From positions 124,113 to 188,112 of the forward strand of contig LBVU01000004.1 of NCBI GenBank assembly GCA_000993205.1: a stretch of 64,000 nt of DNA, written 5' to 3'. This document shows, one piece after another, positions 43,977-64,000 of this stretch. The position numbers and the translations under genes were made by a program. How positions within the stretch are numbered: the stretch's first letter is position 1; each line of letters starts with the position of its first letter. The notes beneath the pieces were generated by a model, which searched no databases, had not been told where the DNA came from, and saw only the letters and a program-made list of their open reading frames with translations. The DNA is from Candidatus Woesebacteria bacterium GW2011_GWB1_39_10 (lineage in GTDB: Bacteria > Patescibacteriota > Microgenomatia > UBA8517).

Positions 43977-43978
43977 TT

Positions 43979-48240: not shown

Positions 48241-48253
48241 CATATAATAAGCC

Positions 48254-50856: not shown

Positions 50857-51721
50857 TTGTCTTTTTCAGACCATCTTCAAATGAAGTTTTCGCTTCCCAG
50901 TTGAGCTCTTTTCTCGCAAGAGATAAGGCCTGATTTATGTTAAAAACCTTTCCTTCCTCGTTTGAACTAAAATCAACTTTAATACCTTTACCCAATACCT
51001 TTTTAAAAACTTCGAGAACTTCTAAAACCGAATATTTTTTAGTCGCTCCCAAATTAAAAATTCCCGCTTTCTTTATTCGTATTACCGTTGAAAATGCTTC
51101 TACAATGTCACCTACATACAAATAATCTCTCTCCTGCTTCCCATCGCCATAAATAACCACTTTACCATCGTCTTTAATATTTGAATAAAATGTATATATA
51201 ATCCCTTTAAAATTTCCCGGACCATAAATATTAAAGGGGCGAAAAATAGTTGCGGGTTCACCGATTTTTGTAGACCAATATTGGACTATTTTTTCGGCAA
51301 GATATTTAGTCAACCCATATTCGGTATTCGGAAAACATTCATCAGTTTCCTTAAATTTATTTTTTTTATCCTTTCCATAAACAGCGACTGATGAAGTAAA
51401 TATGAATTGTTTTATGGGATGTTTTAGCGCCTCCATTATTAGGTTGCGGGTAGCCATAACGTTATCTTTAATTAGTTCTTCTTCCGGAGGTAAATTCCTC
51501 CCAGCCAGATGGATAACTACATCAACATCTTTCAAAAATTCCGAGATACCCTCTCCACTAACCAAATTTCCACGTACCCACTCTATACCTCTAGGAAGTG
51601 GGGGGTTTTCTTCAATCACAAACGCTTTTATTGAATAACCATCAGAAAGAAGTTTACTTATAAGGTGTCCTCCTAAAAAGCCAGTCGCTCCGGTTATTCC
51701 AATTTTCATTTCTAAACCCAA
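50834..51721 (-). CDS. NAD-dependent epimerase/dehydratase (SDR)
   Basis: KIGITGATGFLGGHLISKL and YGLTK (YxxxK). The likely start is the MKIGITG Met at about 51709. Confidence 0.8.
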   Translation of the reverse strand: MGLEMKIGITGATGFLGGHLISKLLSDGYSIKAFVIEENPPLPRGIEWVRGNLVSGEGISEFLKDVDVVIHLAGRNLPPEEELIKDNVMATRNLIMEALKHPIKQFIFTSSVAVYGKDKKNKFKETDECFPNTEYGLTKYLAEKIVQYWSTKIGEPATIFRPFNIYGPGNFKGIIYTFYSNIKDDGKVVIYGDGKQERDYLYVGDIVEAFSTVIRIKKAGIFNLGATKKYSVLEVLEVFKKVLGKGIKVDFSSNEEGKVFNINQALSLARKELNWEAKTSFEDGLKKTIEWYERH

Positions 51722-52710
51722 CCCTCTTTTTCCAATAAAGAGCGGAGTTCTTTTTTACCGATCTGCTCGGTGGTGTCTGAAGCATATCTAAATTCCTTTA
51801 GTGTTTTTTTACCTGCGTATTTTTTTTCTACTGCAGGGATAGATATTTGAGGTAAAATTACATAATAATCTCCGAACTCTACTGTTCTCACGCTTTCTGC
51901 GGGACTAATAAGTGTTTCGTGAATTTTCTCACCGGGACGGATTCCCATTTTAACTATACTTTCAGTATTTTTACCATTGGCCTCTAAAAGAACTTCTGCA
52001 AGGTCAACTATGGAATGACCCGGCATCTTTCTTACAAACACCTCACCACCAACACCTTCTGTCATTGCTGTTAATACCAACTCAACGCTTTTTTGGAGAG
52101 TTAGAATAAAACGGGTCATTCGGGAATCTGTAATGGTCAAGGGTTTGCCTTCTTGAATCAACTTTTTAAAGTGTGGTACAACCGACCCCCTTGAACCAAG
52201 AACATTTCCGTATCTGGTAGAAACAAATACAGTATTGCCTACATCATAGAGATTTGCAGTTGTAATGAGCCGTTCCTGAAGAGCTTTGGCCATTCCGTAG
52301 GCATTTATCGGCTCAACAGCTTTATCTGTAGAAAGCGCAACAACTTTTTCTACTCCTTCATCCCTAGCCGCTTCAATTATATTTTCAGCGCCAATAACGT
52401 TAGTCTTGATCCCCTCCCAAACATTATATTCAACCTCGGTGATCCATTTTAGGGCAGCAGCATGGACTACAATATCTACACCGCGCATGGCCTCACGAAC
52501 ACTTCTAAAATCTCTGATGTCCCCCAATACAAAACGAGTACTTTGCTCATTGTTGTATTCCAACCGCATAGCACCCTGCTTGTCTTCGTCCCTGCTAAAA
52601 ACGATTATTTCCTTTGGCCTATACTTTAGAATTTCTCCAATAAACATACGTCCAAAAGATCCGGTCCCACCGGTAACTAATATTCTCTTACCGCTAAGTA
52701 TTTTTGTCAT
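51712..52710 (-). CDS. UDP-N-acetylglucosamine 4,6-dehydratase, short PseB/FlaA1/CapE-like (Polysacc_synt_2)
   Basis: Matches H. pylori PseB blocks: ILVTGGTGSFG, IVVHAAALKWI, LSTDKAVEPINAYGMAKA, TRYGNVLGSRGSVVPHF, and KPLTITDSRMTRF. Confidence 0.8.
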   Translation of the reverse strand: MTKILSGKRILVTGGTGSFGRMFIGEILKYRPKEIIVFSRDEDKQGAMRLEYNNEQSTRFVLGDIRDFRSVREAMRGVDIVVHAAALKWITEVEYNVWEGIKTNVIGAENIIEAARDEGVEKVVALSTDKAVEPINAYGMAKALQERLITTANLYDVGNTVFVSTRYGNVLGSRGSVVPHFKKLIQEGKPLTITDSRMTRFILTLQKSVELVLTAMTEGVGGEVFVRKMPGHSIVDLAEVLLEANGKNTESIVKMGIRPGEKIHETLISPAESVRTVEFGDYYVILPQISIPAVEKKYAGKKTLKEFRYASDTTEQIGKKELRSLLEKEGWV

Positions 52711-53575
52711 GTTTGGCTGTCACGATTATACCAGAATTAATTGCACCTAGGAATGCGCCCGTTCCTTCAAAAATCTTTACTATTAGCATGCCTAACGTTA
52801 ACCCGGGGTGAGAAATCATTTTTTTCCATTTTTTAAAAAAAATCGGCCTCAAAATTAGGTTGCCAAGACTTAAAACTTGTTCCGGATGTCTTTTCAAAAA
52901 CGTACCGGAATGGGAAGCGTAATAGTATTTCTTTTTGGCTGATTTAAACGGAGAGAACCTACCTTCGTCGTGATATATATAACTTTTAATACGACCAATT
53001 TTAACTCCGGCCTTTCGCATTCTGAGTGGTAAATCATAATCTTCGGGACCGGTTATGCCCGTATCATAGCCATTAAACTTTTTAAAAGTAGTTTTTTTGA
53101 AAAATCTTGGGGCTTCAATTGTCTTATCGCCAACATAAAACTCCCTTTCGAAAACCTTATACTTTGTCCAAAAACCAATACCGAACGATTTCTCGGGGAT
53201 GATGAGTGCCCCCACTTTGGGGTCATTTGTAACAACACCGATACAATCTGCCAATACCCCCGGAGCTAAAGTCATATCTGCATCCAAGACAAGTATATAT
53301 TGACCCCGTGATACTTGCACACCATAGTTTCTCTGAGCAGACCTCTCCGGTCCTTTATCAAAAACCCGTGCCCCAAATTTTCTGGCTATATCTTTAGTGC
53401 CATCGGTTGAGGCATTATCAACCACAATCGTTTCGAAATCTTTGAATGTTTGCAACTTTAGACTCTTGAGAAGTCTTGGTAAATGGAGGGACTCATTCTT
53501 TGAAGTTATTGTAATTGAAATCATATTTTTCTCCATACTCTTGTAAAATGATACCATACTGGAATATAATCCCAT
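52694..53575 (-). CDS. Glycosyltransferase family 2
   Basis: MISITITSKNESLHLPRLLKSL...IVVDNASTDGT...ILVLDADMTL. The likely start is the internal MISITI. Confidence 0.85.
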   Translation of the reverse strand: MGLYSSMVSFYKSMEKNMISITITSKNESLHLPRLLKSLKLQTFKDFETIVVDNASTDGTKDIARKFGARVFDKGPERSAQRNYGVQVSRGQYILVLDADMTLAPGVLADCIGVVTNDPKVGALIIPEKSFGIGFWTKYKVFEREFYVGDKTIEAPRFFKKTTFKKFNGYDTGITGPEDYDLPLRMRKAGVKIGRIKSYIYHDEGRFSPFKSAKKKYYYASHSGTFLKRHPEQVLSLGNLILRPIFFKKWKKMISHPGLTLGMLIVKIFEGTGAFLGAINSGIIVTAKHDKNT

Positions 53576-53578
53576 TGT

Positions 53579-54079
53579 ATGACATTTTTTAAATTACGTC
53601 TTTTGGCAGCATTTTCAGTCTTTGCCCTCTTCCTGTCAATTACCCCCACTGTTTTTGCCCAATCTCCGGAATCTTTCGGACTCACACCTCAAAAAACTCT
53701 TCCTGGTAGTTCCGGATATTTGTTCAAAAGGGTAAAGGAAAAAGTAACAAAAGTGTTTAAGTTTTCTAAAAACTCTAAATACCAATTCCAAAAAGGATTG
53801 CTTGAAAGAAGAGTTTCCGAATATGTCAGCCTTGTTGAAAAAAATGAACAATCACAAATTTCAGATGCTTCGCAAAGGTTGGCTTTCGAGGCAGGAATTC
53901 TTGCTGAAAGTTCGGTTGAAGAGTCCAAAGAAAAGAAAACTGAAATCATTAGCTTGTTTGAAAAATACAAACCAATTCTTGGAAAAATGAGGGACAACTT
54001 CCCTGCCAACACCCCTTTCTGGCTCTTGTCCCAACAAGACATTGATACAATGAATATCTTAACCGAAAAACTCAAGTAA
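53579..54079 (+). CDS. Secreted hypothetical protein with cleavable signal peptide
   Basis: MTFFKLRLLAAFSVFALFLSITPTVFA|QSP shows an n-h-c signal peptide with an AxA-like cleavage site. The mature part is predicted helical and K/E-rich. The overlapping minus-strand ORF 53689..54096 is rejected. Confidence 0.6.
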   Translation: MTFFKLRLLAAFSVFALFLSITPTVFAQSPESFGLTPQKTLPGSSGYLFKRVKEKVTKVFKFSKNSKYQFQKGLLERRVSEYVSLVEKNEQSQISDASQRLAFEAGILAESSVEESKEKKTEIISLFEKYKPILGKMRDNFPANTPFWLLSQQDIDTMNILTEKLK

Positions 54080-55023
54080 TGGCTAAAGTTCCACAAATAT
54101 CGTTTGTTATCCCTGCCAAGGATGAAGAAAAGACAATTTTATTGCTTCACGATCAGATCGTTGATGAAATGAAGAAAATTCATAAATCATTCGAGGTTAT
54201 TTTTGTCGACGACGGCTCTACAGACTCCACCCTTGAAATCGCAAAAAAACTTAACCGCAAAAATAAAAATGTAAAAATCGTAAAACACCGAGGAAATTTT
54301 GGTAAATCGATCGCACTACAAAGCGGTTTTGAAGCGAGTCAGGGTGAAATAATAATCACAATGGATGCAGATCTTCAGGACAATCCCAAGGAAATACCAA
54401 AATTTATTAAAAAAATCGAAGAAGGTCACGACCTGGTCTCAGGTTGGAAAAAGAAAAGATTCGACCCACTAAGCAAAACCATTCCCTCAAAAATGGGTAA
54501 TTGGCTAACTAGAAAACTAACGGGGGTCAAAATCCACGACTTAAATTGCGGTTTTAAAGCCTACAGAAAAAATGTCCTAGCAAATATTCATCTTTATGGG
54601 GAACTCTACAAATTCATTCCCGTACTTGTTACTCATCAAAATTTTAAAGTTACGGAGATTGTGGTATCCCATAAGCCAAGAAAATACGGTAAAAGCAAAT
54701 TTGGAATGGAAAGAAATATCAAAGGAGTACTTGATTTGATAACAGTAGTTTTCCTTACCGGTTACATTCGACGCCCCGGACATTTTTTTGGTTTTTGGGG
54801 AATGGTTTCGTTTTTTGTTGGATTTGTAATTGGCATTTACATAACATATTTGCGAGTCGTCACAGGAACAATCCAGGACAGACAACCATTACTCATTCTT
54901 GGAATGCTTCTTATGATTATTGGTATTCAATTAATTTCGACCGGTTTAGTATCGGAGATGATAGTTAGTCTTAATCAAAAAGATTCCTCTACGGAAAAAT
55001 ATATCGAAGAGAAAATTATTTAA
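54079..55023 (+). CDS. Polyprenyl-phosphate glycosyltransferase (GT2; dolichyl/undecaprenyl-phosphate mannose or glucose synthase, GtrB/DPM1-like) with two C-terminal TM helices
   Basis: ISFVIPAKDEEKTI...VIFVDDGSTDST...IITMDADLQDNP (DxD..Q). C-terminal TM helices FGFWGMVSFFVGFVIGIYITYL and LLILGMLLMIIGIQLISTGLV. TAATG overlap with the preceding gene. Confidence 0.85.
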   Translation: MAKVPQISFVIPAKDEEKTILLLHDQIVDEMKKIHKSFEVIFVDDGSTDSTLEIAKKLNRKNKNVKIVKHRGNFGKSIALQSGFEASQGEIIITMDADLQDNPKEIPKFIKKIEEGHDLVSGWKKKRFDPLSKTIPSKMGNWLTRKLTGVKIHDLNCGFKAYRKNVLANIHLYGELYKFIPVLVTHQNFKVTEIVVSHKPRKYGKSKFGMERNIKGVLDLITVVFLTGYIRRPGHFFGFWGMVSFFVGFVIGIYITYLRVVTGTIQDRQPLLILGMLLMIIGIQLISTGLVSEMIVSLNQKDSSTEKYIEEKII

Positions 55024-57131
55024 GGAAGCGTTTTTAATCCATACACATTTACCTCAAAATTCTTGAGCAAACATGAATTTTCAATCTGTGGGTCCAGCAT
55101 TATATAACGCGTATTTTTTCCGGCAAAAAGATAGACAAAATTTGTGTCATTCCACCCAATTATCTTTTCATCAACATTCGGTGCTACTTGCGGTGAGGTA
55201 ATGGGGTCAATTTGTTGTTGCCAGACCTTCTTGTCGCTTGATAAAGCGATATATCCCAAAGATCCGTTTTGACAACCATTTTTCGCATGATGGACAACTA
55301 ACTTTGTAATAAACACATTCTTACCCAAATCAATGTTTAGGGCCGACCCCAATATATTTTTATCAATAGACGTAAACTTTGGCAAATACGAAATTTCTTC
55401 CTTAAAAATGCTTTTTGTATGTTCCATATCATTTTTCCAAACCTTCAAAATTGGTACGCCATCAACAGAATAAACATAAACAGGCTCAAGATATTTATCA
55501 TAATACTGGAAACTATACCAGTATTTCATTGGCCATTCAAAATACATTTCAATACCATACTCTCCCTCCCGATTTGGGCCAGACCAGTTCGGTTTAGAAT
55601 AGTGCAAGTCGCTTCTAAACATTGTTCTTGAGATATTCGACATGACCCCAAGGGGAAGAGCAATTTTAGCTTCTATTTCGGAATTTTCATTTATCCATTT
55701 AACGCCTTGCAAATAAACTGATCCGTAAGTGTTGCCCCAATACGGAATATTTTTTAATTGGGCACCTTTTAATCCTCCCACCAGTTGATTAAAATATATA
55801 TTTTCATTAGGATGAATTTTCACCATTTCAAAAATAGAAAAAAACAGTCCTACTACAATCAAAGCAAGTGAAACTTTTCTGAAACGAAATCTAAGCAAAG
55901 TATACGTACCAACCCCTGAGAGAATAGCCAAAGCGGGCACATATTCCATAATTTGCCTCACACCGCCGTAAATATCAGCGTTTGGCCACGAAACCCTGAC
56001 AATTGAAACAAATAGCCAAAGTATTGCGAATAAATAGAACTCCATTTTTCTTAATCTAGCAAACAACCAGAAAGACAATATCCCAACTACCGAAAGAACC
56101 AAAACAGGGAGCGTTGTTGTTACGGATATCCAATAGGCAGGGTAAATATTCCAACCATAAAGAATATATTTAGACATTTCAGCAGGAGTTCCAATTCCTA
56201 TCTGGGTGTAATATCCCAAAATATTGAAGGTATTTCGTGCCGGATCTTGCCATAAATACGGCCAAAAAATATACACGATACCCAAAGAAATTGGCAAATA
56301 GACAACGAATGACAACAAGAGCATCCTTCTATCATTTAAAAATTGGGCTACCTTTGTAATCGAAAAATTTGGGGAAAACTTATTTATTAAATAAAAAACA
56401 ATCCATGGCACAACAATAACTGCGGCAAAAATAATATTTAATTTAGTTCCTAATGCCAAACCAGCCGCGATCGATGAAATTAAAATAAACTTCCATTTAT
56501 TTTTTACCACACCCAAATAAAAAAACATTATAGCTAGTCCGAAAAAAGACGCCTCCGGGGGATCCTTTATATTGAAATGGGATTCTGAAAAGAATAATGG
56601 ATAGCTGGCCAGAACAATTGAGCTAACAATTGCTGGAAACGTGCCGAGCTCTTGGCACACAAAATATGCAATTCCAATTATTAGCAAAAAGCTCGTAAAT
56701 AGAATAAACAAATGATGAGAGACGTTATCGCCCAATATTCCCAATTTTTGATAAAATAAATAGTTTGATAAAGCTGCCAAAATGTCATTTACAGGAGGGT
56801 GACCGCTATCGTTGACTACCCAAAATTCGTAATTATAATAATCATTTTGATAATAACTCCGCCTGAAACCGCCACCGGGGCACGAAGGCAACAAGAGCCC
56901 CAGATTTCCGGAGTTGCAGTTTGAATAAACCAGAGGCGGAAAATCATTGTAATTTTTCTTTCCCGTCAAAAAGAAATTAAGATAAGATTGGCCCCTGCTG
57001 AAATGTACAAAGCTGTCCCAATTGATTCCATAATCTGGTATTGTAGCTATTCCAATTATTAAAAACAAAACAGGAACAATTAGTATCAAAAAATGTGGTG
57101 AAATTAATATTTGTCTAAACTTTCTAAACAT
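55020..57131 (-). CDS. PMT/ArnT-family GT-C glycosyltransferase (protein O-mannosyltransferase-like), paralog 1
   Basis: The first loop DYGINWDSFVHFSRGQSYL is comparable to the PMT DE-VHFG and ArnT DETRYAEISR motifs. 703 aa, about 12 TM helices. A SESHFNIKDPPE block is shared with the paralog at 60760..62739. Confidence 0.8.
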   Translation of the reverse strand: MFRKFRQILISPHFLILIVPVLFLIIGIATIPDYGINWDSFVHFSRGQSYLNFFLTGKKNYNDFPPLVYSNCNSGNLGLLLPSCPGGGFRRSYYQNDYYNYEFWVVNDSGHPPVNDILAALSNYLFYQKLGILGDNVSHHLFILFTSFLLIIGIAYFVCQELGTFPAIVSSIVLASYPLFFSESHFNIKDPPEASFFGLAIMFFYLGVVKNKWKFILISSIAAGLALGTKLNIIFAAVIVVPWIVFYLINKFSPNFSITKVAQFLNDRRMLLLSFVVYLPISLGIVYIFWPYLWQDPARNTFNILGYYTQIGIGTPAEMSKYILYGWNIYPAYWISVTTTLPVLVLSVVGILSFWLFARLRKMEFYLFAILWLFVSIVRVSWPNADIYGGVRQIMEYVPALAILSGVGTYTLLRFRFRKVSLALIVVGLFFSIFEMVKIHPNENIYFNQLVGGLKGAQLKNIPYWGNTYGSVYLQGVKWINENSEIEAKIALPLGVMSNISRTMFRSDLHYSKPNWSGPNREGEYGIEMYFEWPMKYWYSFQYYDKYLEPVYVYSVDGVPILKVWKNDMEHTKSIFKEEISYLPKFTSIDKNILGSALNIDLGKNVFITKLVVHHAKNGCQNGSLGYIALSSDKKVWQQQIDPITSPQVAPNVDEKIIGWNDTNFVYLFAGKNTRYIMLDPQIENSCLLKNFEVNVYGLKTLP

Positions 57132-58190
57132 TTAGACCGAGGTTTTCCGATAATTATATTTATTAATCAGTTTAGCTATCTTTTCTACTTCTTTATCCGT
57201 CACAACAGCATCAAGCGGTATGGTTGCAACTCTTGGCCCAACGTATTCTGTAATCGGTAGTTTTTTATTCTTATAACCTTTAAAGGCCGGTTGTTGATGG
57301 AGAGGAGTAAAATTAAAGGAACAGCCAATTCCATTTTCTTTCATGAAATTGAAAAAATCATCTCTATTTTCGACCAAAATTGGGTATAGATGAGTTCCTT
57401 TGTTTTTCAATCCCAAAAGTTTATTATATAAATCCACAACATGGCGCCTTCTCTTTTCAAAACTTGGGAGTCTTTTCAATTGAACTCTGCCAATTGACGA
57501 ATTTAGATCAGTTGTATTAAATTTCCAACCGGAAAATTCAACCGTATAAACCCACTTAGATTGCAGACCATATCTTTTCCAAGCATCGCGTGACAGTCCA
57601 TGGAGTCTGGCCATCCTTAGCCAGTCTGCTACCTTACTATCCGACGTGGTAATCATTCCACCTTCGCCCGTCGTCATATTCTTGGTGGCATAAAAAGAAT
57701 AACAGGAAGCGAAAGCTTTTATATTTTCTCCATCTTTTTCTATTAGATGCGCACTGTCTTCGATTACAGGAATAGATGTTTTGATATGCGCTCTATTCGC
57801 AGCATAATGAACAGGGATAATAGCTTTAGTTTTTTTTGTAATGGCTGCGTCGAGCGACTTCTGGTCCATTGTAAAATCGTCTTCACGGATATCTACAAAA
57901 ACAGGGGTGGCACCACAGTGCACAACCACATTCGCAGTTGCAGCAAAAGTAAAAGAGGGAACAATGACTTCATCGCCATTTTTAATCCCAAGAGCTTTGA
58001 GTGCCAAAAACAACCCTGACGTTGCGCTATTAACCGCTATTGCATGTTTAGCGCCAACATATTTTGCAAATTCTTCCTCAAAAGCTTGCGTTTCGGGACC
58101 CATGGTAAGCCACCCACTTTTTAATACTTTTGTTACTGCTTTTATCTCTTCTTTACCTATACTTGGTCTTTCGAATGGTATTTGTTTCAT
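57132..58190 (-). CDS. DegT/DnrJ/EryC1/StrS-family PLP-dependent sugar aminotransferase (PglE/PseC/ArnB-like)
   Basis: The N-terminus IPFERPSIGKEEIKAVTKVLKSGWLTMGPETQAFEEEFAKYVGAKHAIAVNSATSGL is typical, and the lysine region FYATKNMTTGEGGM is present. Confidence 0.85.
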   Translation of the reverse strand: MKQIPFERPSIGKEEIKAVTKVLKSGWLTMGPETQAFEEEFAKYVGAKHAIAVNSATSGLFLALKALGIKNGDEVIVPSFTFAATANVVVHCGATPVFVDIREDDFTMDQKSLDAAITKKTKAIIPVHYAANRAHIKTSIPVIEDSAHLIEKDGENIKAFASCYSFYATKNMTTGEGGMITTSDSKVADWLRMARLHGLSRDAWKRYGLQSKWVYTVEFSGWKFNTTDLNSSIGRVQLKRLPSFEKRRRHVVDLYNKLLGLKNKGTHLYPILVENRDDFFNFMKENGIGCSFNFTPLHQQPAFKGYKNKKLPITEYVGPRVATIPLDAVVTDKEVEKIAKLINKYNYRKTSV

Positions 58191-58210
58191 ATAGCCATAT
58201 TAAAATAGTA

Positions 58211-59626
58211 TTATCTCACTATATTTATCCCGGGTGCAACACTTCTCAGAATATTGACCACTTCTTTCTTATCGTCCATTTTACGGAGTAGTTTACCTAC
58301 TACATTGACTATATTCACAGCTTCTTTTTTTCCTTTGATTAAAAATATCCGCTCACTAATTGTTTTTTGCTTATCTTCTGTATCATTGATCAGTTTTTCA
58401 TGCAATTTTTCTCCACGCCTAATACCGGAGTACTTTATTTTAATATCAGTTTCTGGGCTCAGACCGGAAAGTTTTATCATAAGCCTGGCCAAGTCGTCAA
58501 TCTTAATCGATTCGCCCATATCAAGCATAAACACTTCTCCCCCATCTTTGATTAAAAAACCTGCATATAAAACCAGCTGAACTGCTTCAGGAATTGTCAT
58601 AAAGTACCTGGTCATTTGTTTGTCTGTCACGATAACCGGACCGCCTTTAGCAATCTGTTTCTTGAACGTAGGGATAACACTTCCTTGGCTTCCTAAGACA
58701 TTTCCAAATCTAACCGAGCAAAATTTTGTCTTCCCTTTCGAATTGTAAAATGTCACTAGTTTCTCTGACAACAATTTAGTTGCGCCCATTATGCTCGACG
58801 GCTCAACTGCTTTATCGGTTGAAATATTAACAAATTTTTTTACTCCGAATTTTATTGCCGACAATATAATATTTTTTGTACCAAACACGTTGTTTTTAAT
58901 TGCTTCTTGCGGAAATTCTTCCATTAAAGGAACGTGCTTATATGCAGCGGCATGAAAAATTATCTCAGGTTTAGTACTATTGAAAATTTCTTCGATTCTT
59001 TTTTTGTCTTGAATATTGGCAACTATGCATTCAAAATCATTTTTGCCTCCGATATCAGATAACTCCAAGCCAAGTTCGTAAAGACCACTCTCCCAAAAAT
59101 CTAAAGCTATCAATTTTTTTGGGTTAAATGACAATATTTGCCTACATATCTCAGAACCAATTGACCCGGCTGCGCCGGTTATTAAAACAGTTTTATTTTT
59201 AAACTCATTCTTAAATAAAGATTGTTCCGATTGAACAATGGCCCTACCAAGTAAATCGCTTATCTCAATTTCCCTGACTTTGGAAAGTTTTACCTTCCCT
59301 TCTACGATTTCTAAAAGTCTGGGAACTATTTTAAAAATGACTTTGTGCTCTTCACAGTTTTTAATAACCTCTCTAATTAAAGAGCCGTTAGCTGATGGTA
59401 TCGCTATAAAAACTTCAGAAATTTTAAATTTTTTGATTAACCTTGAAAGTTCGCTGATTCTACCTATGATTTTAATACCATTTACTTTCTTAAAATTCAA
59501 ATCTTCTTTATCGTCTAGAAAACCTGCAATTTTATACCGATTTCTGAAATGTTTTTGAATTTCCTCCGAAAGTTCTTCGCCGGCAACTCCGGCACCAACA
59601 ATTATTATATTTTCTTTCTTATTCAT
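58211..59626 (-). CDS. UDP-N-acetylglucosamine 4,6-dehydratase, long soluble CapD/PglF/WbpM-like (Polysacc_synt_2 with N-terminal CoA-binding-like domain)
   Basis: IIIVGAGVAGEEL N-terminal domain. The dehydratase domain has VLITGAAGSIGSE, IFHAAAYKHVPLME, ISTDKAVEPSSIMGATK, VRFGNVLGSQGSVIPTF and MTRYFM. 471 aa, with no TM segments. Confidence 0.8.
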   Translation of the reverse strand: MNKKENIIIVGAGVAGEELSEEIQKHFRNRYKIAGFLDDKEDLNFKKVNGIKIIGRISELSRLIKKFKISEVFIAIPSANGSLIREVIKNCEEHKVIFKIVPRLLEIVEGKVKLSKVREIEISDLLGRAIVQSEQSLFKNEFKNKTVLITGAAGSIGSEICRQILSFNPKKLIALDFWESGLYELGLELSDIGGKNDFECIVANIQDKKRIEEIFNSTKPEIIFHAAAYKHVPLMEEFPQEAIKNNVFGTKNIILSAIKFGVKKFVNISTDKAVEPSSIMGATKLLSEKLVTFYNSKGKTKFCSVRFGNVLGSQGSVIPTFKKQIAKGGPVIVTDKQMTRYFMTIPEAVQLVLYAGFLIKDGGEVFMLDMGESIKIDDLARLMIKLSGLSPETDIKIKYSGIRRGEKLHEKLINDTEDKQKTISERIFLIKGKKEAVNIVNVVGKLLRKMDDKKEVVNILRSVAPGINIVR

Positions 59627-60759
59627 ATCTTATTAATAAAATCCATTATTTTTCGCGCCGATTCATTGATGTTGAAATCTCCAGCTGCAACAATGGTATT
59701 TTTTGAAAACCTATTCCTTTTTTTCTTTTGATTTGGCAATTGTACTATTAAATTGGCTAACTGTCTAAAATTCTCTTTTTCAAATGTTACACCTACTTTG
59801 TATTTATTAACCAGATATTTAAGATCCGGTAAATTTGATGCAATTATCGGAGTTCCGACTTTCATTGCCTCAGAAAAAACAAGCGGAATACTATCGCTTC
59901 TGGAAGGAATTACCAACCAATCTGACCCCGCAATGACATTACTTATTTTTTGAAAATCGTTTACATTCCCATAAAAATTTATTTGTTTACCTAAACCATA
60001 TTTCTCGGCTTTTTGTCTAAGCATGACTTGAAGCGACCCCCCCCCAATAAAATTAATTTTGTATTTAGATAAATCATTTCTAACCAGAAACAATGCCTCT
60101 AACAATATATCGGGACCTTTAACAGATTCCATCCGTCCAACAAAAGTTAAAACTATTTTGTTTATTTTTTCCTTGACCATATTGATCTTGAAACTTGCCT
60201 TTGTTGCCGAAGGTATAAAAATACATTTTTTACCCGACAATTCAGTCGTTTTTTCTGCCAAATCAATACCGTCAGCAAAAACAAAATCCGCATTACTCAA
60301 CACACGCTCAATGATCTGTTTAAGGATAGGTTTTTTGCTATAAACATAAATATCAGATCCAAGGCACCATACAACGTATGGTATTCCGAAAATTTTTTTG
60401 GCAATATAAGCAAACACACCCGATGGAAATGCCCACATAACTATGTTTATTGAAATTTTATTTTTCTTGATAAATAGAGGTAGATAATACATTCCTCCAA
60501 TAAAAAAAGCGGTAAATTTTAAAATATCTATCGGGTTCCAAAATCTTAAGCTTCCCAACTTATTACCCTTAGTGACTACAAAGTTAGTTATTTTAACTTT
60601 TCCAATTTTATCGGCGCGGTTATTTTCAATGGGGGTAAGTACGAATACCTTTTCGCTTTCTGCTAATTCCTGGGCAATGTCATTAACAAATATTCCGGCA
60701 TTTTGCCTATCTTTCAAACTTGTTGGAAAATTATGTGTAATAATGCCAATATTTTTCAT
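59623..60759 (-). CDS. Glycosyltransferase family 4
   Basis: SDSIPLVFSEAMKVGTPIIASNLPDLKYLV. The start ATG abuts the TAA of the upstream PMT-like gene. Confidence 0.85.
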   Translation of the reverse strand: MKNIGIITHNFPTSLKDRQNAGIFVNDIAQELAESEKVFVLTPIENNRADKIGKVKITNFVVTKGNKLGSLRFWNPIDILKFTAFFIGGMYYLPLFIKKNKISINIVMWAFPSGVFAYIAKKIFGIPYVVWCLGSDIYVYSKKPILKQIIERVLSNADFVFADGIDLAEKTTELSGKKCIFIPSATKASFKINMVKEKINKIVLTFVGRMESVKGPDILLEALFLVRNDLSKYKINFIGGGSLQVMLRQKAEKYGLGKQINFYGNVNDFQKISNVIAGSDWLVIPSRSDSIPLVFSEAMKVGTPIIASNLPDLKYLVNKYKVGVTFEKENFRQLANLIVQLPNQKKKRNRFSKNTIVAAGDFNINESARKIMDFINKI

Positions 60760-62739
60760 TTATTTAAGTCCCCAAAATTCAATATTTGGCGATTTGAGAA
60801 AGCAGGAATCTGAATCTGGAAACAAAATGCGAAGATATTTTAAATCTCTCGCTGCGAAAAAAAATGGAGATGTGTCTTTGGGCAAATTACCAACACTAAC
60901 CTGGATTGCTGGAATTGATTCCAGCTCGGTTGTCCATTTTACACGATCGAGGGATGTTTCAATATGTGCCGTTGCACTTGTACATTTATTATCTGGTATG
61001 TAATGCAAAAAAAATCGCGTGATCGTTTCTGATTGATTAAATATTATATTTAATTCTTTTTCGCCACTTTCCAAACGATAATCCCAAAGTTTTACCTCAA
61101 GTTTTTGATATTTAGAGTTTGTGTGGGCCAAATCGTTCTTCCAAATTTTAGCAATCGCTACTCCGTCAACTTTGACCTCGTAAACAGGAATCAACACCTT
61201 ATCGACATATTCCCAAACATACGGATAAGCATTATTTTGGCCGCCGTAAATCATCTCAAATAGATACTCCCCACCTCTATTCATACCAGTCCAGTTCATA
61301 TTCCCAAAATCAAGATCCGACCTCAACTGCGGCAACGCAACATTTGAACCCGTGCCTTGTACCAATCCAAGCTTTGCTCCTGGTTCGACGTTTATATTAA
61401 GCCATCTAATTGCTTGCCAATAAGAATTACCAAAACTATTCCCCCAATATGGTATCTTTTTCTGCGAAGCACCTTTTAAACCACCAACCAAAAAGTTGAA
61501 ATACACATTTTCATTTGGATGCAATCTAATCAAAACAACTACTTGGGGTATAAATAAAATAAGCAAAATGCCGAAAATTGTATATTTAGAAAAACTTGTA
61601 TTTTTAATAATCCAGTCAAAAATAACTTTTGCCCCCAATCCAGACAAAAGCGCCATCGCAGGAACATATTCCATTATCTGGCGTATTCCACCATAAATTG
61701 TCGTATTGGGCAACATAACTCTAGAAATAGGAACTAAAAACCACAACAGCCAAAGCCATTCTGTCTTTCTTTTAGACAACTTCCCAAAAAGAATACGCGT
61801 CGTGCCGACTAGCGTCAAGAATAAAGAAAATGGTTGGGTTGTAATTGCGACCCAATAGATCGGAAACAGATTTATTTTCTTAAACAAAAAATATCTAGGA
61901 TCATTGATACCCCCAATGCCGATTCCTTTATAATAACCAAACGCATCAATAAAATTTTTAAGAGGATCTCTCCATAAATAAGGCCAAAGAACTAGAAAAA
62001 TTAAAAATACAATAGCGGGAGAGAAAATAAGCATAAATTTGTAACATTTGGGAATCCCCCTAATCCAAACTCCCGGTTTCCTGAACTTTTCCCGATATCT
62101 AATTAAAAGATATGGAACCAGAATGAAGGGCAAAAAAACAATATTAAACTTCGTACCCAATCCAAAAGCACAAAAAACAAGCGATGTAAGAAGCCAAATC
62201 CAATTACCTTTCTGCAACGATTTCCAAAAAGAAAAAACAGTAATTGTAAAAAATGCAGTTTCTACTGGATCTTTTATGTTGAAATGTGATTCACTAAAAA
62301 AGATTGGATATGTAGCTAGAGTCAGACCACAAACCAAGGCCCCCACAAGGCCGATCTCTTCATAAGCAAAGAGAGTGACAGAAAGCACTGTCAGGGTTGA
62401 AACAAAAATAATGAATAAATGATAACTATCGAGATCTCCTAAAATATTCAACTTTTGATAAAAAATGTAATTAAAAAAAGCTGAAAAAATATCACCCGTC
62501 GGTGGATGAGCACTGTCATTTTTAAGAAAATATGTTCCATTATACGAGTCATTTTGATAATAACTTCTTCGACTTTGATCTTTCGCGTATGTTTTTCGGC
62601 CAGATATTAAATACTGCAAAAACGCCTGCCCGCGCGAATAGTGGATCGAGTCATCCCAGTTAATACCATAATCTTTGAGCGTAACGAAAGAAACAATAAA
62701 AAAAAGAATGGAAACGCCTACGATTATATTTTTTTTCAT
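60760..62739 (-). CDS. PMT/ArnT-family GT-C glycosyltransferase (protein O-mannosyltransferase-like), paralog 2
   Basis: LKDYGINWDDSIHYSRGQAFLQY and YPIFFSESHFNIKDPVE closely parallel 55020..57131. 659 aa. Confidence 0.8.
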   Translation of the reverse strand: MKKNIIVGVSILFFIVSFVTLKDYGINWDDSIHYSRGQAFLQYLISGRKTYAKDQSRRSYYQNDSYNGTYFLKNDSAHPPTGDIFSAFFNYIFYQKLNILGDLDSYHLFIIFVSTLTVLSVTLFAYEEIGLVGALVCGLTLATYPIFFSESHFNIKDPVETAFFTITVFSFWKSLQKGNWIWLLTSLVFCAFGLGTKFNIVFLPFILVPYLLIRYREKFRKPGVWIRGIPKCYKFMLIFSPAIVFLIFLVLWPYLWRDPLKNFIDAFGYYKGIGIGGINDPRYFLFKKINLFPIYWVAITTQPFSLFLTLVGTTRILFGKLSKRKTEWLWLLWFLVPISRVMLPNTTIYGGIRQIMEYVPAMALLSGLGAKVIFDWIIKNTSFSKYTIFGILLILFIPQVVVLIRLHPNENVYFNFLVGGLKGASQKKIPYWGNSFGNSYWQAIRWLNINVEPGAKLGLVQGTGSNVALPQLRSDLDFGNMNWTGMNRGGEYLFEMIYGGQNNAYPYVWEYVDKVLIPVYEVKVDGVAIAKIWKNDLAHTNSKYQKLEVKLWDYRLESGEKELNIIFNQSETITRFFLHYIPDNKCTSATAHIETSLDRVKWTTELESIPAIQVSVGNLPKDTSPFFFAARDLKYLRILFPDSDSCFLKSPNIEFWGLK

Positions 62740-62876
62740 ATGATCAATTTTTTGAAATTATATAAGCTACGTATGTCGTCGGATAAAGTATCTTTTAGGT
62801 TAGTCTTTCAACAACACCCACAAGCTTCAGGTAGCCAGTTAAGATATTTTTGTACTTAAGGGGGAGTTCTCTCATA

Positions 62877-63644
62877 TCACCGGCGATGGCTTCTCTGTTT
62901 TCGAAGCACAAATAAATAATTGGGAATCATTGGATAAAGTATTCTTAGTGCAAAACCTGGGATTTTGAATACGAAAGAATTTTTTTTGATAAGGTCATCC
63001 ACATAATACCTAAACGGGGACCTGATAACTTTCAATGTGAAATCTTCAACTATAAAATTTCCCATCAATTTTTTAATCCCTATTATTGTCCTTAAACGAG
63101 GCTCGTAATATTCACCAGACTTTGTCCATCGTACATAAAAATCGGCAAGCCAAATGGGAAGCCATGAAACAAATGGAAGATTTGGATAGTGCGCATCTCT
63201 AATAACTAATCTGTTGCCGGCACCCAAAAAACAGATTCCATCCTGTTTTAACACGCGATATATTTCATCCATTAATAATTTTGGGTTTTCTGCGTGTTCA
63301 TATATCTGATTTGCTACAATAATATCAAATGAGTTATCTCCGAAAGGGAAGCTACCATCCGGCTTTAATAATTTGAAACTAAGATTTTTCTTTTTATGTT
63401 TGCTCGCCCTGCGAATAGCGACCCTATCAACATCAACCCCAACGACATATCTAAAATATGGCGATAAATATGATGAAATTATTCCTTCCGCACAACCAAC
63501 ATCAAGAAGTTTCGCTTTTTTTATTTGAGGACCAAAAGCATCTTTTAAAATTCTAATGATCTTTTTAGTTTTCCTGAGTCTGCTCTTTTTCTCGTAAACT
63601 AAATCTGCACCATATACCTGACTGTGAAATTGTTTTGTTATCAT
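62877..63644 (-). CDS. Class I SAM-dependent methyltransferase
   Basis: LLDVGCAEGIISSYL motif I and DIIVANQIYEHA motif II. Confidence 0.85.
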   Translation of the reverse strand: MITKQFHSQVYGADLVYEKKSRLRKTKKIIRILKDAFGPQIKKAKLLDVGCAEGIISSYLSPYFRYVVGVDVDRVAIRRASKHKKKNLSFKLLKPDGSFPFGDNSFDIIVANQIYEHAENPKLLMDEIYRVLKQDGICFLGAGNRLVIRDAHYPNLPFVSWLPIWLADFYVRWTKSGEYYEPRLRTIIGIKKLMGNFIVEDFTLKVIRSPFRYYVDDLIKKNSFVFKIPGFALRILYPMIPNYLFVLRKQRSHRR

Positions 63645-63697
63645 ATAGTTAATTCTAACTCAATCGCTTATTTAATTAAAGGAGTGATCTAAGTTGT

Positions 63698-64000
63698 TTA
63701 GCCGATATTTTGATTTCGCCCCTCGACAACCTTTAAACTCAATTTGCGTGAAATTCTCCATTCAAAATTTTTAACCCATTTTTTTGATGTGTTACATAAA
63801 CGCCGATATCTAGAGTCAGATTTTAATATTTCATTAACTGAATTAAATAATCCCAAGGGGGTATTGTCTCTTACAAAAATTCCGCTTTCACCATGCTTTA
63901 CAGAATCTACCAAGCCTGAAGATTTGTACGCTACAACGGGGGTTCCAACGGCATTGGCTTCAATATTCACAAGGCCCCAACCTTCATGAGCAGATGGATT
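63698..64000 (-). CDS. Glycosyltransferase family 4, C-terminal part; gene continues beyond the window end
   Basis: The reverse complement through the window end reads ...NPSAHEGWGLVNIEANAVGTPVVAYKSSGLVDSV (the GT4 EX7E region). The listed 90-aa ORF is an internal-Met truncation. Confidence 0.7.
   Translation of the reverse strand, partial: NPSAHEGWGLVNIEANAVGTPVVAYKSSGLVDSVKHGESGIFVRDNTPLGLFNSVNEILKSDSRYRRLCNTSKKWVKNFEWRISRKLSLKVVEGRNQNIG

What the first reader, a model, noticed from the sequence alone, without database searches (positions are those of the whole stretch)
54079..62739. DPM1/GtrB-like polyprenyl-phosphate sugar synthase coupled to two PMT-like GT-C paralogs: a protein O-mannosylation-like module
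The GT2 gene at 54079..55023 has the Dpm1/GtrB DxD..Q catalytic domain and two C-terminal TM helices. It is immediately followed by a 703-aa membrane enzyme whose first loop (DYGINWDSFVHFSRGQ) resembles the eukaryotic/actinobacterial PMT DE-VHFG motif. A close paralog (DYGINWDDSIHYSRGQ) sits 3.6 kb away, and a second GtrB-like synthase is at 47290..48240. The Ppm1 plus Pmt pairing is the hallmark of protein O-mannosylation in Actinobacteria and eukaryotes. Two paralogous transferases suggest two acceptor specificities.
Basis: partly seen in the sequence, partly recalled or inferred. Interest (0 to 1): 0.65.

Follow-up and report, generated by a model that had tools for sequence, protein, structure and literature searches.

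The report
Lipid-linked sugar glycosylation module, Woesebacteria
The genes are real and form an ordinary bacterial lipid-carrier glycosylation system (a sugar-loading enzyme plus two membrane transferases) in an uncultured groundwater bacterium, but nothing shows that the sugar is mannose or that the target is protein.

Summary
The window comes from Candidatus Woesebacteria GW2011_GWB1_39_10, a Candidate Phyla Radiation (CPR) bacterium.

- **GT2 54079..55023:** a polyprenyl-phosphate glycosyltransferase with a DADLQD motif and two C-terminal TM helices. Its best solved relative is ArnC, then GtrB, then archaeal DPMS.
- **Pairing with the GT2:** the convergent GT-C/GT2 arrangement recurs in related genomes, so the pairing is real.
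- **Operon content:** the two GT-C genes flank a tightly packed GT4, a PglF-like UDP-GlcNAc 4,6-dehydratase and an ArnB-like aminotransferase.
- **PMT-specific features:** PMT_4TMC and MIR are absent. The Pfam "PMT" model also matches E. coli ArnT, so it does not discriminate.

[quoted passage not shown] The donor is probably an amino-deoxy-HexNAc and the acceptor probably a cell-envelope glycan. Protein O-glycosylation is not excluded.

Verdict: a new member of a known kind, of modest interest.

The parts
54079..55023 (+). Polyprenyl-phosphate glycosyltransferase (GT2, ArnC/GtrB architecture: GT-A domain with a DADLQD motif plus 2 C-terminal TM helices).
   Evidence: - Pfam Glycos_transf_2, E 6e-34.
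- NCBIfam: ArnC 178 bits and PgfS 138 bits, both full length and both below their equivalog cut-offs.
- PDB: ArnC 4e-42, GtrB 1e-27, PfDPMS 6e-18.
- 30% identical to E. coli ArnC over the full length. Residues aligning to ArnC R128, R131, R137, S141 and R205 are K124, R127, K133, S137 and R201 (ArnC residue roles from PMC12690121).
- TM helices at 237-255 and 273-291.
55020..57131 (-). GT-C1, 703 aa: a GT-C glycosyltransferase of a mainly CPR clade in the ArnT/PMT superfamily. It has a TM module, a conserved periplasmic domain and a C-terminal CBM32-like beta-sandwich.
   Evidence: - Pfam PMT_2, E 9e-7.
- 39% identical to GT-C2.
- Scores 846 bits against the family profile A1.
- Motifs: DYGINWDS at 33, HPP at 111, ESHFNIKDP at 183, HPNEN at 440.
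- In related genomes the gene at this position is convergent with the GT2 ortholog.
60760..62739 (-). GT-C2, 659 aa: paralog of GT-C1 with the same architecture.
   Evidence: - Pfam PMT_2 2e-11 and a partial PMT hit 3e-8.
- AF2 model with pLDDT 90.2 and pTM 0.87.
- Invariant family residues: D29, H33, R36, H78, P79, E150, N154, K156, D157, K197, N199, R340, R353, E357, H407, N411, C586, C646.
57132..58190 (-). PLP-dependent sugar 4-aminotransferase (DegT family), ArnB-like.
   Evidence: - Pfam DegT_DnrJ_EryC1, E 1e-95.
- NCBIfam: ArnB 288 bits, PseC 268 bits.
- PDB: ArnB 8e-65, PseC 2.5e-38.
- 37% identical to E. coli ArnB.
58211..59626 (-). PglF-like UDP-GlcNAc 4,6-dehydratase, soluble form with an N-terminal CoA_binding_3 domain.
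   Evidence: - Pfam Polysacc_synt_2, E 1.6e-112.
- PDB: C. jejuni PglF/WlaL 4.5e-79, ahead of CapD 1.5e-49 and PseB 4.8e-47.
- No TM segment detected.
- Fused to the aminotransferase in a Microgenomates relative (L003 5394..7865).
59623..60759 (-). GT4 (GT-B) cytoplasmic glycosyltransferase encoded between GT-C2 and the dehydratase.
   Evidence: - Pfam Glycos_transf_1, E 2e-31.
- A GT4 lies next to 21 of 86 GT-C copies in related loci.
- 0-nt gap to GT-C2 and 4-nt overlap with the dehydratase gene.
62877..63644 (-). Class I SAM methyltransferase upstream of GT-C2.
   Evidence: - Pfam Methyltransf_11, E 5e-21.
- A homolog lies directly upstream of the GT-C in Daviesbacteria (L001).
- Homologs occur in 23 of 74 loci.
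53579..54079 (+). DUF5667 protein: a signal or anchor helix followed by a compact five-helix bundle. It is translationally coupled to the GT2. Its role is unknown.
   Evidence: - Pfam DUF5667, E 1.7e-8.
- 1-nt overlap with the GT2 start.
- Found upstream of the GT2 ortholog in L026, L034, L035, L049 and L057.
52694..53575 (-). Second GT2 (generic GT-A), transcribed divergently from DUF5667-GT2. It is the most constant neighbour of the GT2 ortholog.
   Evidence: - Pfam Glycos_transf_2, E 3e-23.
- 25 of 37 GT2 orthologs have it divergent within 800 bp.
- PDB returns only generic GT-A hits.
47290..48240 (+). Second polyprenyl-phosphate glycosyltransferase, PgfS/CsbB/GtrB-like.
   Evidence: - Pfam Glycos_transf_2, E 1.6e-26.
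- NCBIfam PgfS 246 bits, full length, below the cut-off of 500.
- C-terminal TM helices.

Best explanation

Proposed mechanism:
1. On the cytoplasmic face, the GT2 at 54079..55023 transfers one sugar from a nucleotide sugar to polyprenyl phosphate. Its domain type, catalytic motif and TM architecture are shown. Its activity is inferred.
2. The lipid-monophosphate sugar is flipped by an unidentified flippase. This step is inferred. No GtrA or SMR gene is nearby, and the only Wzx-type gene lies 35 kb away.
3. Outside the membrane, the paralogous GT-C enzymes GT-C1 and GT-C2 transfer the sugar to an acceptor, using the invariant loop-1 Asp (D29 in GT-C2) and the ESHFNIKDP loop. The fold and residue conservation are shown. 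Catalysis is inferred.
4. Each GT-C carries a C-terminal CBM32-like domain with an invariant Cys pair. This is the most divergent domain between the paralogs (25% identity). I read it as the part that selects or holds the acceptor, most likely a cell-envelope glycan.
5. The sugar is most likely not mannose. It is more likely a UDP-GlcNAc-derived 4-amino-4,6-dideoxy-HexNAc, free or N-acylated, made by the PglF-like dehydratase and the ArnB-like aminotransferase encoded between the two GT-C genes. On this reading the logic resembles the Arn pathway with a different 4-keto-sugar generator.

My confidence by step:
- General mechanism: about 0.85.
- Glycan or lipid acceptor rather than protein: about 0.65.
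- Amino-deoxy-HexNAc donor: about 0.35.

The overall confidence figure of 0.6 refers to the statement as a whole, without requiring the specific donor.
For: GT2:
- Full-length similarity to ArnC and GtrB, a DADLQD motif and two TM helices.

GT-C enzymes:
- Invariant D29, H33, R36, HPP, E150, K156 and D157 in 30/30 sequences.
- In solved GT-C enzymes the catalytic Asp follows TM1 (PMC11127046).

Pairing of GT2 and GT-C:
- 37 of 74 related loci hold the GT2 ortholog (58-85% identity) within 10 kb.
- 32 of 86 GT-C copies have it within 3 kb, and 15 of 86 have it immediately adjacent and convergent.

Operon:
- GT-C2, GT4, dehydratase, aminotransferase and GT-C1 are separated by 0, -4, 20 and 0 nt.
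- The GT-C, GT4, PglF, DegT order recurs in L004, L006, L008, L016, L021 and L065.
- The dehydratase and aminotransferase are fused in L003.
- Best solved relatives of three components are ArnB, ArnC and ArnT. The dehydratase is closest to PglF.

CBM-like domain:
- Pfam F5_F8_type_C in 7 of 30 homologs.
- Invariant C586 and C646.
- Domain identities between the paralogs are 39% (TM), 51% (periplasmic) and 25% (CBM-like).

Precedent:
- PMT_2-type GT-Cs paired with GT-A synthases glycosylate LTA, WTA, rhamnan and SCWP.
- Large GT-Cs use extracellular CBMs to bind the acceptor polymer (PMC8035078; PMC11127046 for GT136, Emb and AftD).
Against: - No flippase gene is linked to the module.
- The PglF/DegT association covers only about 12% of family copies (10-11 of 86). 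The GT4 beside them could instead consume the amino sugar in the cytoplasm, leaving the GT2 to load a different sugar.
- There is no formyl- or acetyltransferase in the operon and no ArnD-like deacylase in the window.
- Donor specificity of Pren-P GT2 enzymes cannot be read from sequence.
- A lectin-like domain does not exclude protein acceptors. From my own knowledge, eukaryotic PMTs carry a beta-trefoil MIR domain.
- At sequence level the family is marginally nearer to PMT fragments (hhalign E 0.0033, probability 9.7%) than to E. coli ArnT (E 0.034, probability 1.5%).
- Nothing has been tested biochemically.
Confidence: 0.6

Rival explanations
1. Protein O-glycosylation in the broad sense, like PMT or the S. 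mutans Pgf system. The GT2 makes a polyprenyl-P-sugar, and GT-C1 and GT-C2 attach it to Ser/Thr of secreted or surface proteins such as S-layer or pilin proteins. The sugar need not be mannose.
For: - The family shares short PMT motifs. The consensus ISWDEPIHF..GHPPL..NIKDP compares with Pmt1/2/4 VVFDEVHFG..DVHPPL..ILLD. The PMT sequences were read from PDB alignments, and the family consensus.
- hhalign against the PMT fragments gives E 0.0033 and aligns the HPP and K/L-D motifs in register.
- TMEM260-like Pfam hits occur in 2 of 30 homologs.
- The second GT2 in the window resembles PgfS, which belongs to a protein-glycosylation system (for the model name; the Pgf biology is from my own knowledge).
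Against: - No PMT_4TMC or MIR hit.
- The Pfam PMT label is shared with ArnT.
- In the two window paralogs the second acidic residue of the 'DE' motif is S or D.
- The suggested substrate, DUF5667, is a folded helical bundle without Ser/Thr/Pro enrichment: 21% in the mature part.
- The characterised bacterial PMT_2 + GT-A pairs listed in PMC8035078 all modify glycopolymers.
Confidence: 0.2
2. One reading: a Ppm1/Dpm1 + Pmt protein O-mannosylation module that uses GDP-mannose and polyprenyl-P-mannose.
For: - The GT2 shares the DADLQ motif and GT-A core with P. furiosus DPMS (PMC12690121).
- CPR genome papers have noted multiple genes annotated as 'dolichol-phosphate mannosyltransferase' (PMC4736985, PMC6031116).
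Against: - DPMS is the weakest of the three solved Pren-P GT relatives and matches only the catalytic domain (residues 6-209).
- The architecture (2 C-terminal TM helices, full-length alignment) is that of ArnC/GtrB, which use UDP-sugars.
- No GDP-mannose synthesis gene lies in 64 kb of glycan genes.
- The operon partners act on UDP-HexNAc.
- The GT39 membership features are not met.
Confidence: 0.06
3. GT2 and GT-C are not functionally coupled. The adjacency merely reflects crowding in a 64-kb glycan island. On this reading the GT-C enzymes use another donor (for example one made by the PgfS-like GT2 at 47290..48240, or a diphosphate-linked glycan), or act as polymerases or ligases.
For: - The window holds about 10 polytopic GT-C-like proteins and two Pren-P GT2 genes.
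- GT2 and GT-C1 are convergent, not co-transcribed.
- Half of the related loci lack the GT2 ortholog within 10 kb.
Against: - The exact convergent adjacency with the orthologous GT2 (58-85% identity) recurs across Daviesbacteria, Woesebacteria, Levybacteria, Blackburnbacteria and others.
- Several GT-C paralogs per genome sharing one synthase is the norm in known systems (PMC8035078).
- There is no STT3 or Wzy_C Pfam hit and no WWDxG motif.
Confidence: 0.1

Closest known systems
Arn pathway of Gram-negative bacteria (ArnB aminotransferase, ArnC Und-P glycosyltransferase, ArnT GT-C)
   Same: - The aminotransferase is 37% identical to E. coli ArnB, and ArnB is its best PDB hit.
- The GT2 is 30% identical to ArnC over the full length, with conserved Und-P-binding positions.
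- The logic is the same: make a 4-amino sugar, load it on polyprenyl monophosphate, and transfer it outside the membrane.
   Different: - No ArnA, ArnD or ArnE/F is present. The 4-keto sugar would come from a PglF-like UDP-GlcNAc 4,6-dehydratase.
- The GT-C shows no sequence-level relation to ArnT (hhalign probability 1.5%; no NCBIfam ArnT hit).
- It carries an extra CBM32-like domain.
- From my own knowledge, CPR bacteria are not known to make lipid A.
- The GT2 scores far below the ArnC equivalog cut-off (178 against 529 bits).
Multi-component transmembrane glycosylation systems of Gram-positive bacteria (CsbB/GtcA/YfhO, GtlA/GtlB, GacI/J/K/L, CsdA-F, B. subtilis YkcC/YkcB); review PMC8035078
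   Same: - A GT-A Pren-P sugar synthase with C-terminal TM helices is paired with, and encoded beside, a PMT_2-type GT-C.
- Several GT-Cs can share one synthase.
- Acceptors are extracytoplasmic.
   Different: - No GtrA-type flippase is linked.
- The GT-C family here is found almost only in CPR genomes, and none of its members is characterised.
- It has a C-terminal CBM32-like domain.
- The genes are convergent.
- The cell-wall polymers of Woesebacteria are unknown.
Protein O-mannosyltransferases (GT39: eukaryotic Pmt1/2/4, actinobacterial Pmt) with Dpm1/Ppm1
   Same: - A loop-1 acidic motif followed by H-F, an HPP(L) motif, and a later conserved Asp.
- A donor made by a GT2 Pren-P synthase.
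   Different: - No PMT_4TMC or MIR domain.
- The spacing between the motifs differs, and the profile-profile probability is only 9.7%.
- The GT2 is nearer to ArnC/GtrB than to DPMS.
- The gene context points to amino-deoxy-HexNAc rather than mannose.
GT136 three-component system of Citrobacter youngae (ORF12 GT-C with CBM), and the Emb/AftD arabinosyltransferases; PMC11127046
   Same: - A GT-C enzyme is fused to an extracytoplasmic carbohydrate-binding module. In ORF12 that module binds the unmodified acceptor polysaccharide.
- The donor is a polyprenyl-monophosphate sugar.
   Different: - The GT-C sequence family differs.
- The donor synthase differs (a phosphoribosyl-type synthase against GT2).
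- The flippase there is a MATE-family protein.
- The CBM family differs.
Campylobacter Pgl pathway, early steps (PglF dehydratase, PglE aminotransferase)
   Same: - The dehydratase's best solved relative is PglF (4.5e-79).
- It is followed by a DegT-family 4-aminotransferase.
- A GT4 enzyme is encoded beside them.
   Different: - There is no PglC-type phosphoglycosyltransferase, no PglD in the operon, and no PglB/STT3.
- The aminotransferase is closer to ArnB than to PseC.
- The dehydratase lacks the N-terminal TM region.

Membership tests
Protein O-mannosyltransferase (GT39, PMT/Pmt) | N-terminal GT39/83 domain (Pfam PF02366 'PMT') | tested here: inconclusive
   - GT-C2 scores 33.9 bits, a partial hit covering profile positions 85-225 of 245. 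GT-C1 has no hit. 18 of 30 homologs hit.
- Control: E. coli ArnT hits the same model at 211 bits over the full length. The model therefore does not separate PMT from ArnT.
Protein O-mannosyltransferase (GT39, PMT/Pmt) | C-terminal PMT_4TMC domain (PF16192) | tested here: not met
   No hit at E<=0.01 in GT-C1, GT-C2 or any of the 30 family members.
Protein O-mannosyltransferase (GT39, PMT/Pmt) | MIR beta-trefoil domain in the large luminal loop (eukaryotic PMTs) | tested here: not met
   - No MIR Pfam hit.
- In the AF2 model the extra-membrane domains are C-terminal: an alpha/beta domain followed by a CBM32-like beta-sandwich.
Protein O-mannosyltransferase (GT39, PMT/Pmt) | Loop-1 Asp-Glu motif after TM1 | tested here: inconclusive
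   - The Asp is invariant (D29, 30/30).
- The next residue is Glu in 26 of 30 sequences, but Ser in GT-C1 and Asp in GT-C2.
- hhalign against real PMT fragments did not align this motif.
Protein O-mannosyltransferase (GT39, PMT/Pmt) | Polyprenyl-P-mannose donor and Ser/Thr protein acceptor | not testable with these tools
   This needs biochemistry. The gene context gives no mannose genes.
ArnT (GT83 lipid A Ara4N transferase) | Sequence-level orthology to ArnT | tested here: not met
   - hhalign of the family profile against E. coli ArnT gives probability 1.5% and E 0.034.
- No NCBIfam ArnT hit. The only hit is weak Agl23 at 25 bits.
ArnT (GT83 lipid A Ara4N transferase) | ArnT-like GT-C_A transmembrane fold | tested here: met
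   [not shown]
ArnT (GT83 lipid A Ara4N transferase) | Companion genes arnA (formyltransferase/decarboxylase), arnD and arnE/F | tested here: not met
   None is found among all ORFs of at least 120 aa in the window. ArnB-like and ArnC-like genes are present.
Polyprenyl-phosphate glycosyltransferase (GtrB/ArnC/DPMS-type GT2) | GT-A domain with a DXDxQ metal/donor motif | tested here: met
   - Glycos_transf_2, E 6e-34.
- DADLQD at residues 95-100, aligned to the ArnC DADLQN.
- The motif is defined in PMC12690121.
Polyprenyl-phosphate glycosyltransferase (GtrB/ArnC/DPMS-type GT2) | C-terminal TM hairpin, and basic/Ser residues that bind the Pren-P phosphate | tested here: met
   - TM helices at 237-255 and 273-291.
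- K124, R127, K133, S137 and R201 align to ArnC R128, R131, R137, S141 and R205 (residue roles from PMC12690121).
Polyprenyl-phosphate glycosyltransferase (GtrB/ArnC/DPMS-type GT2) | Equivalog-level identity with a synthase of known sugar specificity | tested here: not met
   ArnC scores 178 against a cut-off of 529, PgfS 138 against 500, AglJ 99.5 against 325, and PpgS 46.5 against 370. The donor sugar is therefore unassigned.
Multi-component transmembrane glycosylation system | GT-A synthase and GT-C transferase encoded together, conserved across genomes | tested here: met
   - Of 86 GT-C copies, 15 have the GT2 ortholog adjacent and convergent, and 32 have it within 3 kb.
- 37 of 74 loci have it within 10 kb.
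- The same arrangement appears in Daviesbacteria L001/L002.
Multi-component transmembrane glycosylation system | Dedicated flippase (GtrA, SMR or Wzx type) | tested here: inconclusive
   - No GtrA or SMR hit in the window.
- One Wzx-type gene lies at 19457..20803, 35 kb away.
- A 122-aa multi-TM ORF at 25651..26019 has no Pfam family.
CBM32 / F5-F8 type C (discoidin) domain | Beta-sandwich fold and family profile match in the C-terminal ~110 residues | tested here: met
   - Pfam F5_F8_type_C in 7 of 30 homologs.
- The family profile gives E 0.12 to CBM32 4lpl.
- The two window paralogs themselves do not reach the Pfam threshold.
Oligosaccharyltransferase (STT3/PglB/AglB) | STT3 family profile and the WWDxG motif in the C-terminal domain | tested here: not met
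   - No STT3 Pfam hit and no WWDxG motif.
- Foldseek ranks STT3 first, but with TM-scores of 0.41-0.45, like every other GT-C hit.

The most novel reading that the evidence does not exclude
An Arn-like pathway in a CPR bacterium. A PglF-like dehydratase and an ArnB-like aminotransferase make a 4-amino-4,6-dideoxy-HexNAc (bacillosamine-type) sugar. An ArnC-like GT2 loads it on polyprenyl monophosphate. CBM32-bearing GT-C paralogs then attach it to the cell surface. This would be a new donor class for ArnT/PMT-superfamily enzymes and possibly a cationic surface modification in an organism without LPS. If the acceptor proved to be protein, it would be the first PMT-like O-glycosylation in the CPR.
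Probability: 0.2. Interest if true: 0.55.

Novelty: new member of a known kind. Interest (0 to 1): 0.3.

Why it matters
Little is known experimentally about the cell envelope of CPR/Patescibacteria, which are tiny and mostly episymbiotic bacteria. This window shows a Woesebacteria genome of about 1 Mb devoting at least 64 kb to glycan assembly, with about ten polytopic GT-C-like enzymes.

The GT-C family studied here is large (798 clusters at 50% identity with E<=1e-30). The named genomes that carry it are almost all Microgenomates-group CPR bacteria. It is structurally well predicted and evolves faster than its neighbours. These features make it a reasonable target for defining CPR surface glycans and host-contact structures.

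As a discovery it remains an uncharacterised instance of a well-known mechanism. Public records already annotate members as 'glycosyltransferase family 39 / phospholipid carrier-dependent glycosyltransferase'.

Tried and rejected
- **Sequence searches of GT-C2 and of the 30-sequence family profile against PDB.** Nothing was found for the membrane module. The only match was a weak CBM32 hit, E 0.12.
- **Profile-profile comparisons.** Against E. coli ArnT the probability was 1.5%. Against four real PMT N-terminal fragments it was 9.7% with E 0.0033. Both are too weak to assign a family.
- **afdb50 fold search.** Unavailable.
- **DUF5667 as a Ser/Thr/Pro-rich substrate.** Rejected: 21% S+T+P, a confident compact helical bundle, and no informative fold match.
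- **Rosetta-stone fusions among longer family members.** Nothing decisive. One variant replaces the CBM-like domain with a Metallophos phosphoesterase domain (P0203).
- **Promoter and terminator scans.** At chance level: 45 against 39.2 +/- 6.4, and 13 against 8.9 +/- 2.9.
- **Rfam.** No match in 44000..64000.
- **Other large membrane proteins in the window.** None belongs to this family.
- **Literature.** No paper on this family. CPR genome papers only remark on multiple 'dolichol-phosphate mannosyltransferase' annotations.

Full report
**Source and setting**

The DUF5667 protein at 53579..54079 is 100% identical to UT17_C0004G0174 of Candidatus Woesebacteria bacterium GW2011_GWB1_39_10. The same gene order, with the same gene calls, occurs in independent Rifle groundwater assemblies (L079 and L080). 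GC content is about 35%.

The whole 64-kb window is a glycan-assembly island. It holds many GT2 and GT4 genes, nucleotide-sugar dehydratases and epimerases, methyltransferases, a Wzx-type flippase and a Wzy_C protein. It also holds about ten polytopic GT-C-like proteins.

**Checking the observation**

The GT2 at 54079..55023:
- It has a Glycos_transf_2 domain (E 6e-34).
- It has the DADLQD motif and two C-terminal TM helices.

The two large membrane proteins:
- They carry DYGINWDSFVHFSRGQ and DYGINWDDSIHYSRGQ directly after TM1.
- They are paralogs, 39% identical over their full length (E 6e-155).

The main correction is strand.
- Both GT-C genes are on the minus strand, so GT2 and GT-C1 are convergent, with 3' ends overlapping by 4 nt.
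- The two GT-C genes bracket a tightly packed minus-strand run: GT-C2, GT4, dehydratase, aminotransferase, GT-C1, with gaps of 0, -4, 20 and 0 nt. A methyltransferase gene lies 137 nt upstream.
- DUF5667 and the GT2 overlap by 1 nt on the plus strand.

**The GT2**

Against solved structures it matches ArnC full-length (E 4e-42), then GtrB full-length (1e-27), then only the catalytic domain of P. furiosus DPMS (6e-18).

It is 30% identical to E. coli ArnC. K124, R127, K133, S137 and R201 align with the ArnC residues assigned to Und-P and donor-phosphate binding (PMC12690121).

It scores far below every NCBIfam equivalog cut-off (ArnC 178 against 529, PgfS 138 against 500). It is therefore a polyprenyl-phosphate glycosyltransferase of ArnC/GtrB architecture whose sugar is unassigned.

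The second GT2, at 47290..48240, is a distinct PgfS/CsbB-like paralog (246 bits).

**The GT-C enzymes**

Family and distribution:
- Pfam gives only PMT_2 for GT-C1. For GT-C2 it gives PMT_2 plus a partial PMT hit.
- The word-index search returned 784 homologs.
- A full HMM scan found 798 50%-identity clusters at E<=1e-30 and 5016 at E<=1e-10.
- Named genomes are nearly all Microgenomates-group CPR bacteria: Daviesbacteria, Woesebacteria, Levybacteria, Blackburnbacteria, Gottesmanbacteria, Roizmanbacteria and Shapirobacteria. Genomes often hold two or three copies.

Comparison with solved structures:
- Neither the protein nor a 30-sequence profile finds any solved structure by sequence.
- The AF2 model is confident (pLDDT 90.2, pTM 0.87).
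- Foldseek ranks STT3 first, but all GT-C_A families have TM-scores of 0.4-0.45.

The enzyme therefore has the GT-C_A fold and sits with ArnT and PMT, without belonging to either family.
- hhalign probability is 1.5% to E. coli ArnT and 9.7% to real PMT N-terminal fragments.
- PMT_4TMC and MIR are absent in all 30 members tested.
- As a control, E. coli ArnT itself hits Pfam 'PMT' at 211 bits, so the Pfam name carries no mannose or protein meaning.

Conserved residues:
- D29, H33 and R36 in loop 1.
- The HPP motif, and E150, N154, K156 and D157 within ESHFNIKDP.
- K197, N199, R340, R353, E357, and H407/N411 within HPNEN.

The position of D29 just after TM1 fits the catalytic Asp of solved GT-C enzymes (PMC11127046).

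The family consensus ISWDEPIHF..GHPPL compares with PMT VVFDEVHFG..DVHPPL. However, the second acidic residue is Ser in GT-C1 and Asp in GT-C2.

**The C-terminal domains**

After the last TM helix come two domains.
- The first is a conserved alpha/beta domain.
- An invariant Cys pair (C586/C646) fits an extracytoplasmic location.

Identity between the two paralogs is 39% in the TM module, 51% in the middle domain and only 25% in the CBM-like domain.

GT-C enzymes with CBMs (Emb, AftD, GT136 ORF12) use them to hold polysaccharide acceptors (PMC11127046, PMC8035078).

**Synteny**

I ran tblastn of the window's proteins against 74 related loci.
- 37 loci have the GT2 ortholog (58-85% identity) within 10 kb.
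- 32 of 86 GT-C copies have it within 3 kb.
- 15 of 86 have it immediately adjacent and convergent, exactly as in the window.
- The GT2 ortholog is usually flanked by the divergent GT2 found at 52694..53575 in the window (25 of 37), sometimes with DUF5667 in between.
- The order GT-C, GT4, PglF-like, DegT recurs in at least six loci. In one Microgenomates genome the dehydratase and aminotransferase are fused into one 823-aa protein.

The dehydratase's best solved relative is C. jejuni PglF (4.5e-79). The aminotransferase's best solved relative is ArnB (8e-65), and it is 37% identical to E. coli ArnB.

Three components therefore have ArnB, ArnC and ArnT as their nearest solved relatives, with a PglF-type 4,6-dehydratase in place of ArnA. 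No formyltransferase, ArnD, ArnE/F, GtrA, phosphoglycosyltransferase or GDP-mannose gene lies anywhere in the window.

**DUF5667**

Its Ser/Thr/Pro content is ordinary (21%). It has only generic helical structural neighbours.

It is translationally coupled to the GT2 and conserved in that position in several Woesebacteria-like loci. That looks more like an accessory partner than a PMT-type substrate. Its role remains unknown.

**Interpretation**

1. The GT2 charges polyprenyl phosphate with one sugar.
2. An unidentified flippase moves it across the membrane.
3. The two GT-C paralogs transfer it to extracytoplasmic acceptors.

I rate the general mechanism at about 0.85. I favour a cell-envelope glycan or lipid acceptor over protein at about 0.65. 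This rests on the bacterial precedents for PMT_2 + GT-A pairs (PMC8035078) and on the CBM-like domain.

I rate the specific donor, the amino-deoxy-HexNAc made by the operon's own enzymes, at about 0.35. The neighbouring GT4 could equally consume that sugar in the cytoplasm, and only about 12% of family copies sit next to PglF/DegT.

Broad protein O-glycosylation remains possible (about 0.2). The strict Ppm1 + Pmt mannosylation reading is unlikely (about 0.06).

**Novelty**

The mechanism is well known, and public annotations already call family members GT39-like or 'phospholipid carrier-dependent glycosyltransferase'. CPR genome papers have noted many 'dolichol-phosphate mannosyltransferase' genes (PMC4736985, PMC6031116).

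What is new:
- A sizeable, uncharacterised GT-C clade, found mainly in CPR genomes, with a CBM32-like domain.
- Its conserved pairing with an ArnC-like synthase.
- Its operon link to PglF-like and ArnB-like enzymes.

I classify it as a new member of a known kind, with interest 0.3.

Noticed in passing
window 1..64000: The whole window is one glycan-assembly island, mostly on the minus strand. Besides GT-C1 and GT-C2 it holds three more PMT_2 proteins (2651..4147, 10698..11999, 16531..17922), a Wzy_C protein (4113..5486) and a Wzx-type flippase (19457..20803). It also holds an 842-aa polytopic protein (20727..23255), many GT2 and GT4 genes, methyltransferases and nucleotide-sugar enzymes.
   Followed up: partly
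window 33835..35808, 37004..39475, 39472..41235: Three large polytopic membrane proteins (657, 823 and 587 aa) have no Pfam family at all. They are unrelated to the GT-C family studied here. They may be unrecognised GT-C-like enzymes.
   Followed up: partly
window 23427..29497: An AftD-like 1163-aa GT-C (26006..29497) is followed by a 122-aa multi-TM ORF with no Pfam hit (25651..26019). Next come a UGM-like flavoprotein (24223..25446) and a weak GT2 (23427..24230). This could be a separate lipid-linked furanose module.
   Followed up: no
window 53575..53579: The start codons of the divergent genes GT2 (52694..53575, minus) and DUF5667 (53579.., plus) are 3 nt apart, or 21 nt in the public gene call. 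Each promoter must therefore lie inside the other gene. A 10/12 sigma-70-like match sits at 53541..53570 on the plus strand, but the scan overall is at chance level.
   Followed up: partly
L049 (CP066686.1) 10034..12118 vs window 55020..57131: The syntenic GT-C1 ortholog in a related Woesebacteria genome is only 47%, 65% and 41% identical in the TM, middle and CBM-like domains. The flanking genes are 64-93% identical, and most are 76-93%. The GT-C evolves much faster than its neighbours.
   Followed up: partly
L003 5394..7865 (JACQJR010000001.1): The PglF-like dehydratase and the DegT aminotransferase are fused into one 823-aa protein, right after a GT-C and a GT4 gene. This is a Rosetta-stone link between the two enzymes.
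   Followed up: no
L001/L002 1..6270 (Daviesbacteria MFDS01000017.1): Six consecutive radical-SAM / B12-binding genes lie next to a PMT_2 GT-C and an LPG_synthase_TM gene.
   Followed up: no
P0203 (832 aa, family relative): In this family member the CBM-like C-terminal domain is replaced by a calcineurin-like phosphoesterase (Metallophos) domain. Other relatives of about 540-600 aa lack the C-terminal domain altogether.
   Followed up: no
loci L005, L007-L009, L013 and others: Many public bins that carry this mainly CPR family are labelled 'uncultured Gammaproteobacteria' (TPA_asm), and one is labelled 'Woesearchaeota'. Their gene content and best matches are Microgenomates-like, so the taxonomic labels are probably wrong.
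   Followed up: no
window 43979..45826: An AsnB-type glutamine amidotransferase lies inside the glycan island, next to a GT2 and a membrane-anchored hexapeptide acyltransferase (46669..47223). The arrangement is conserved in L034. It suggests amidated or acylated sugars.
   Followed up: no
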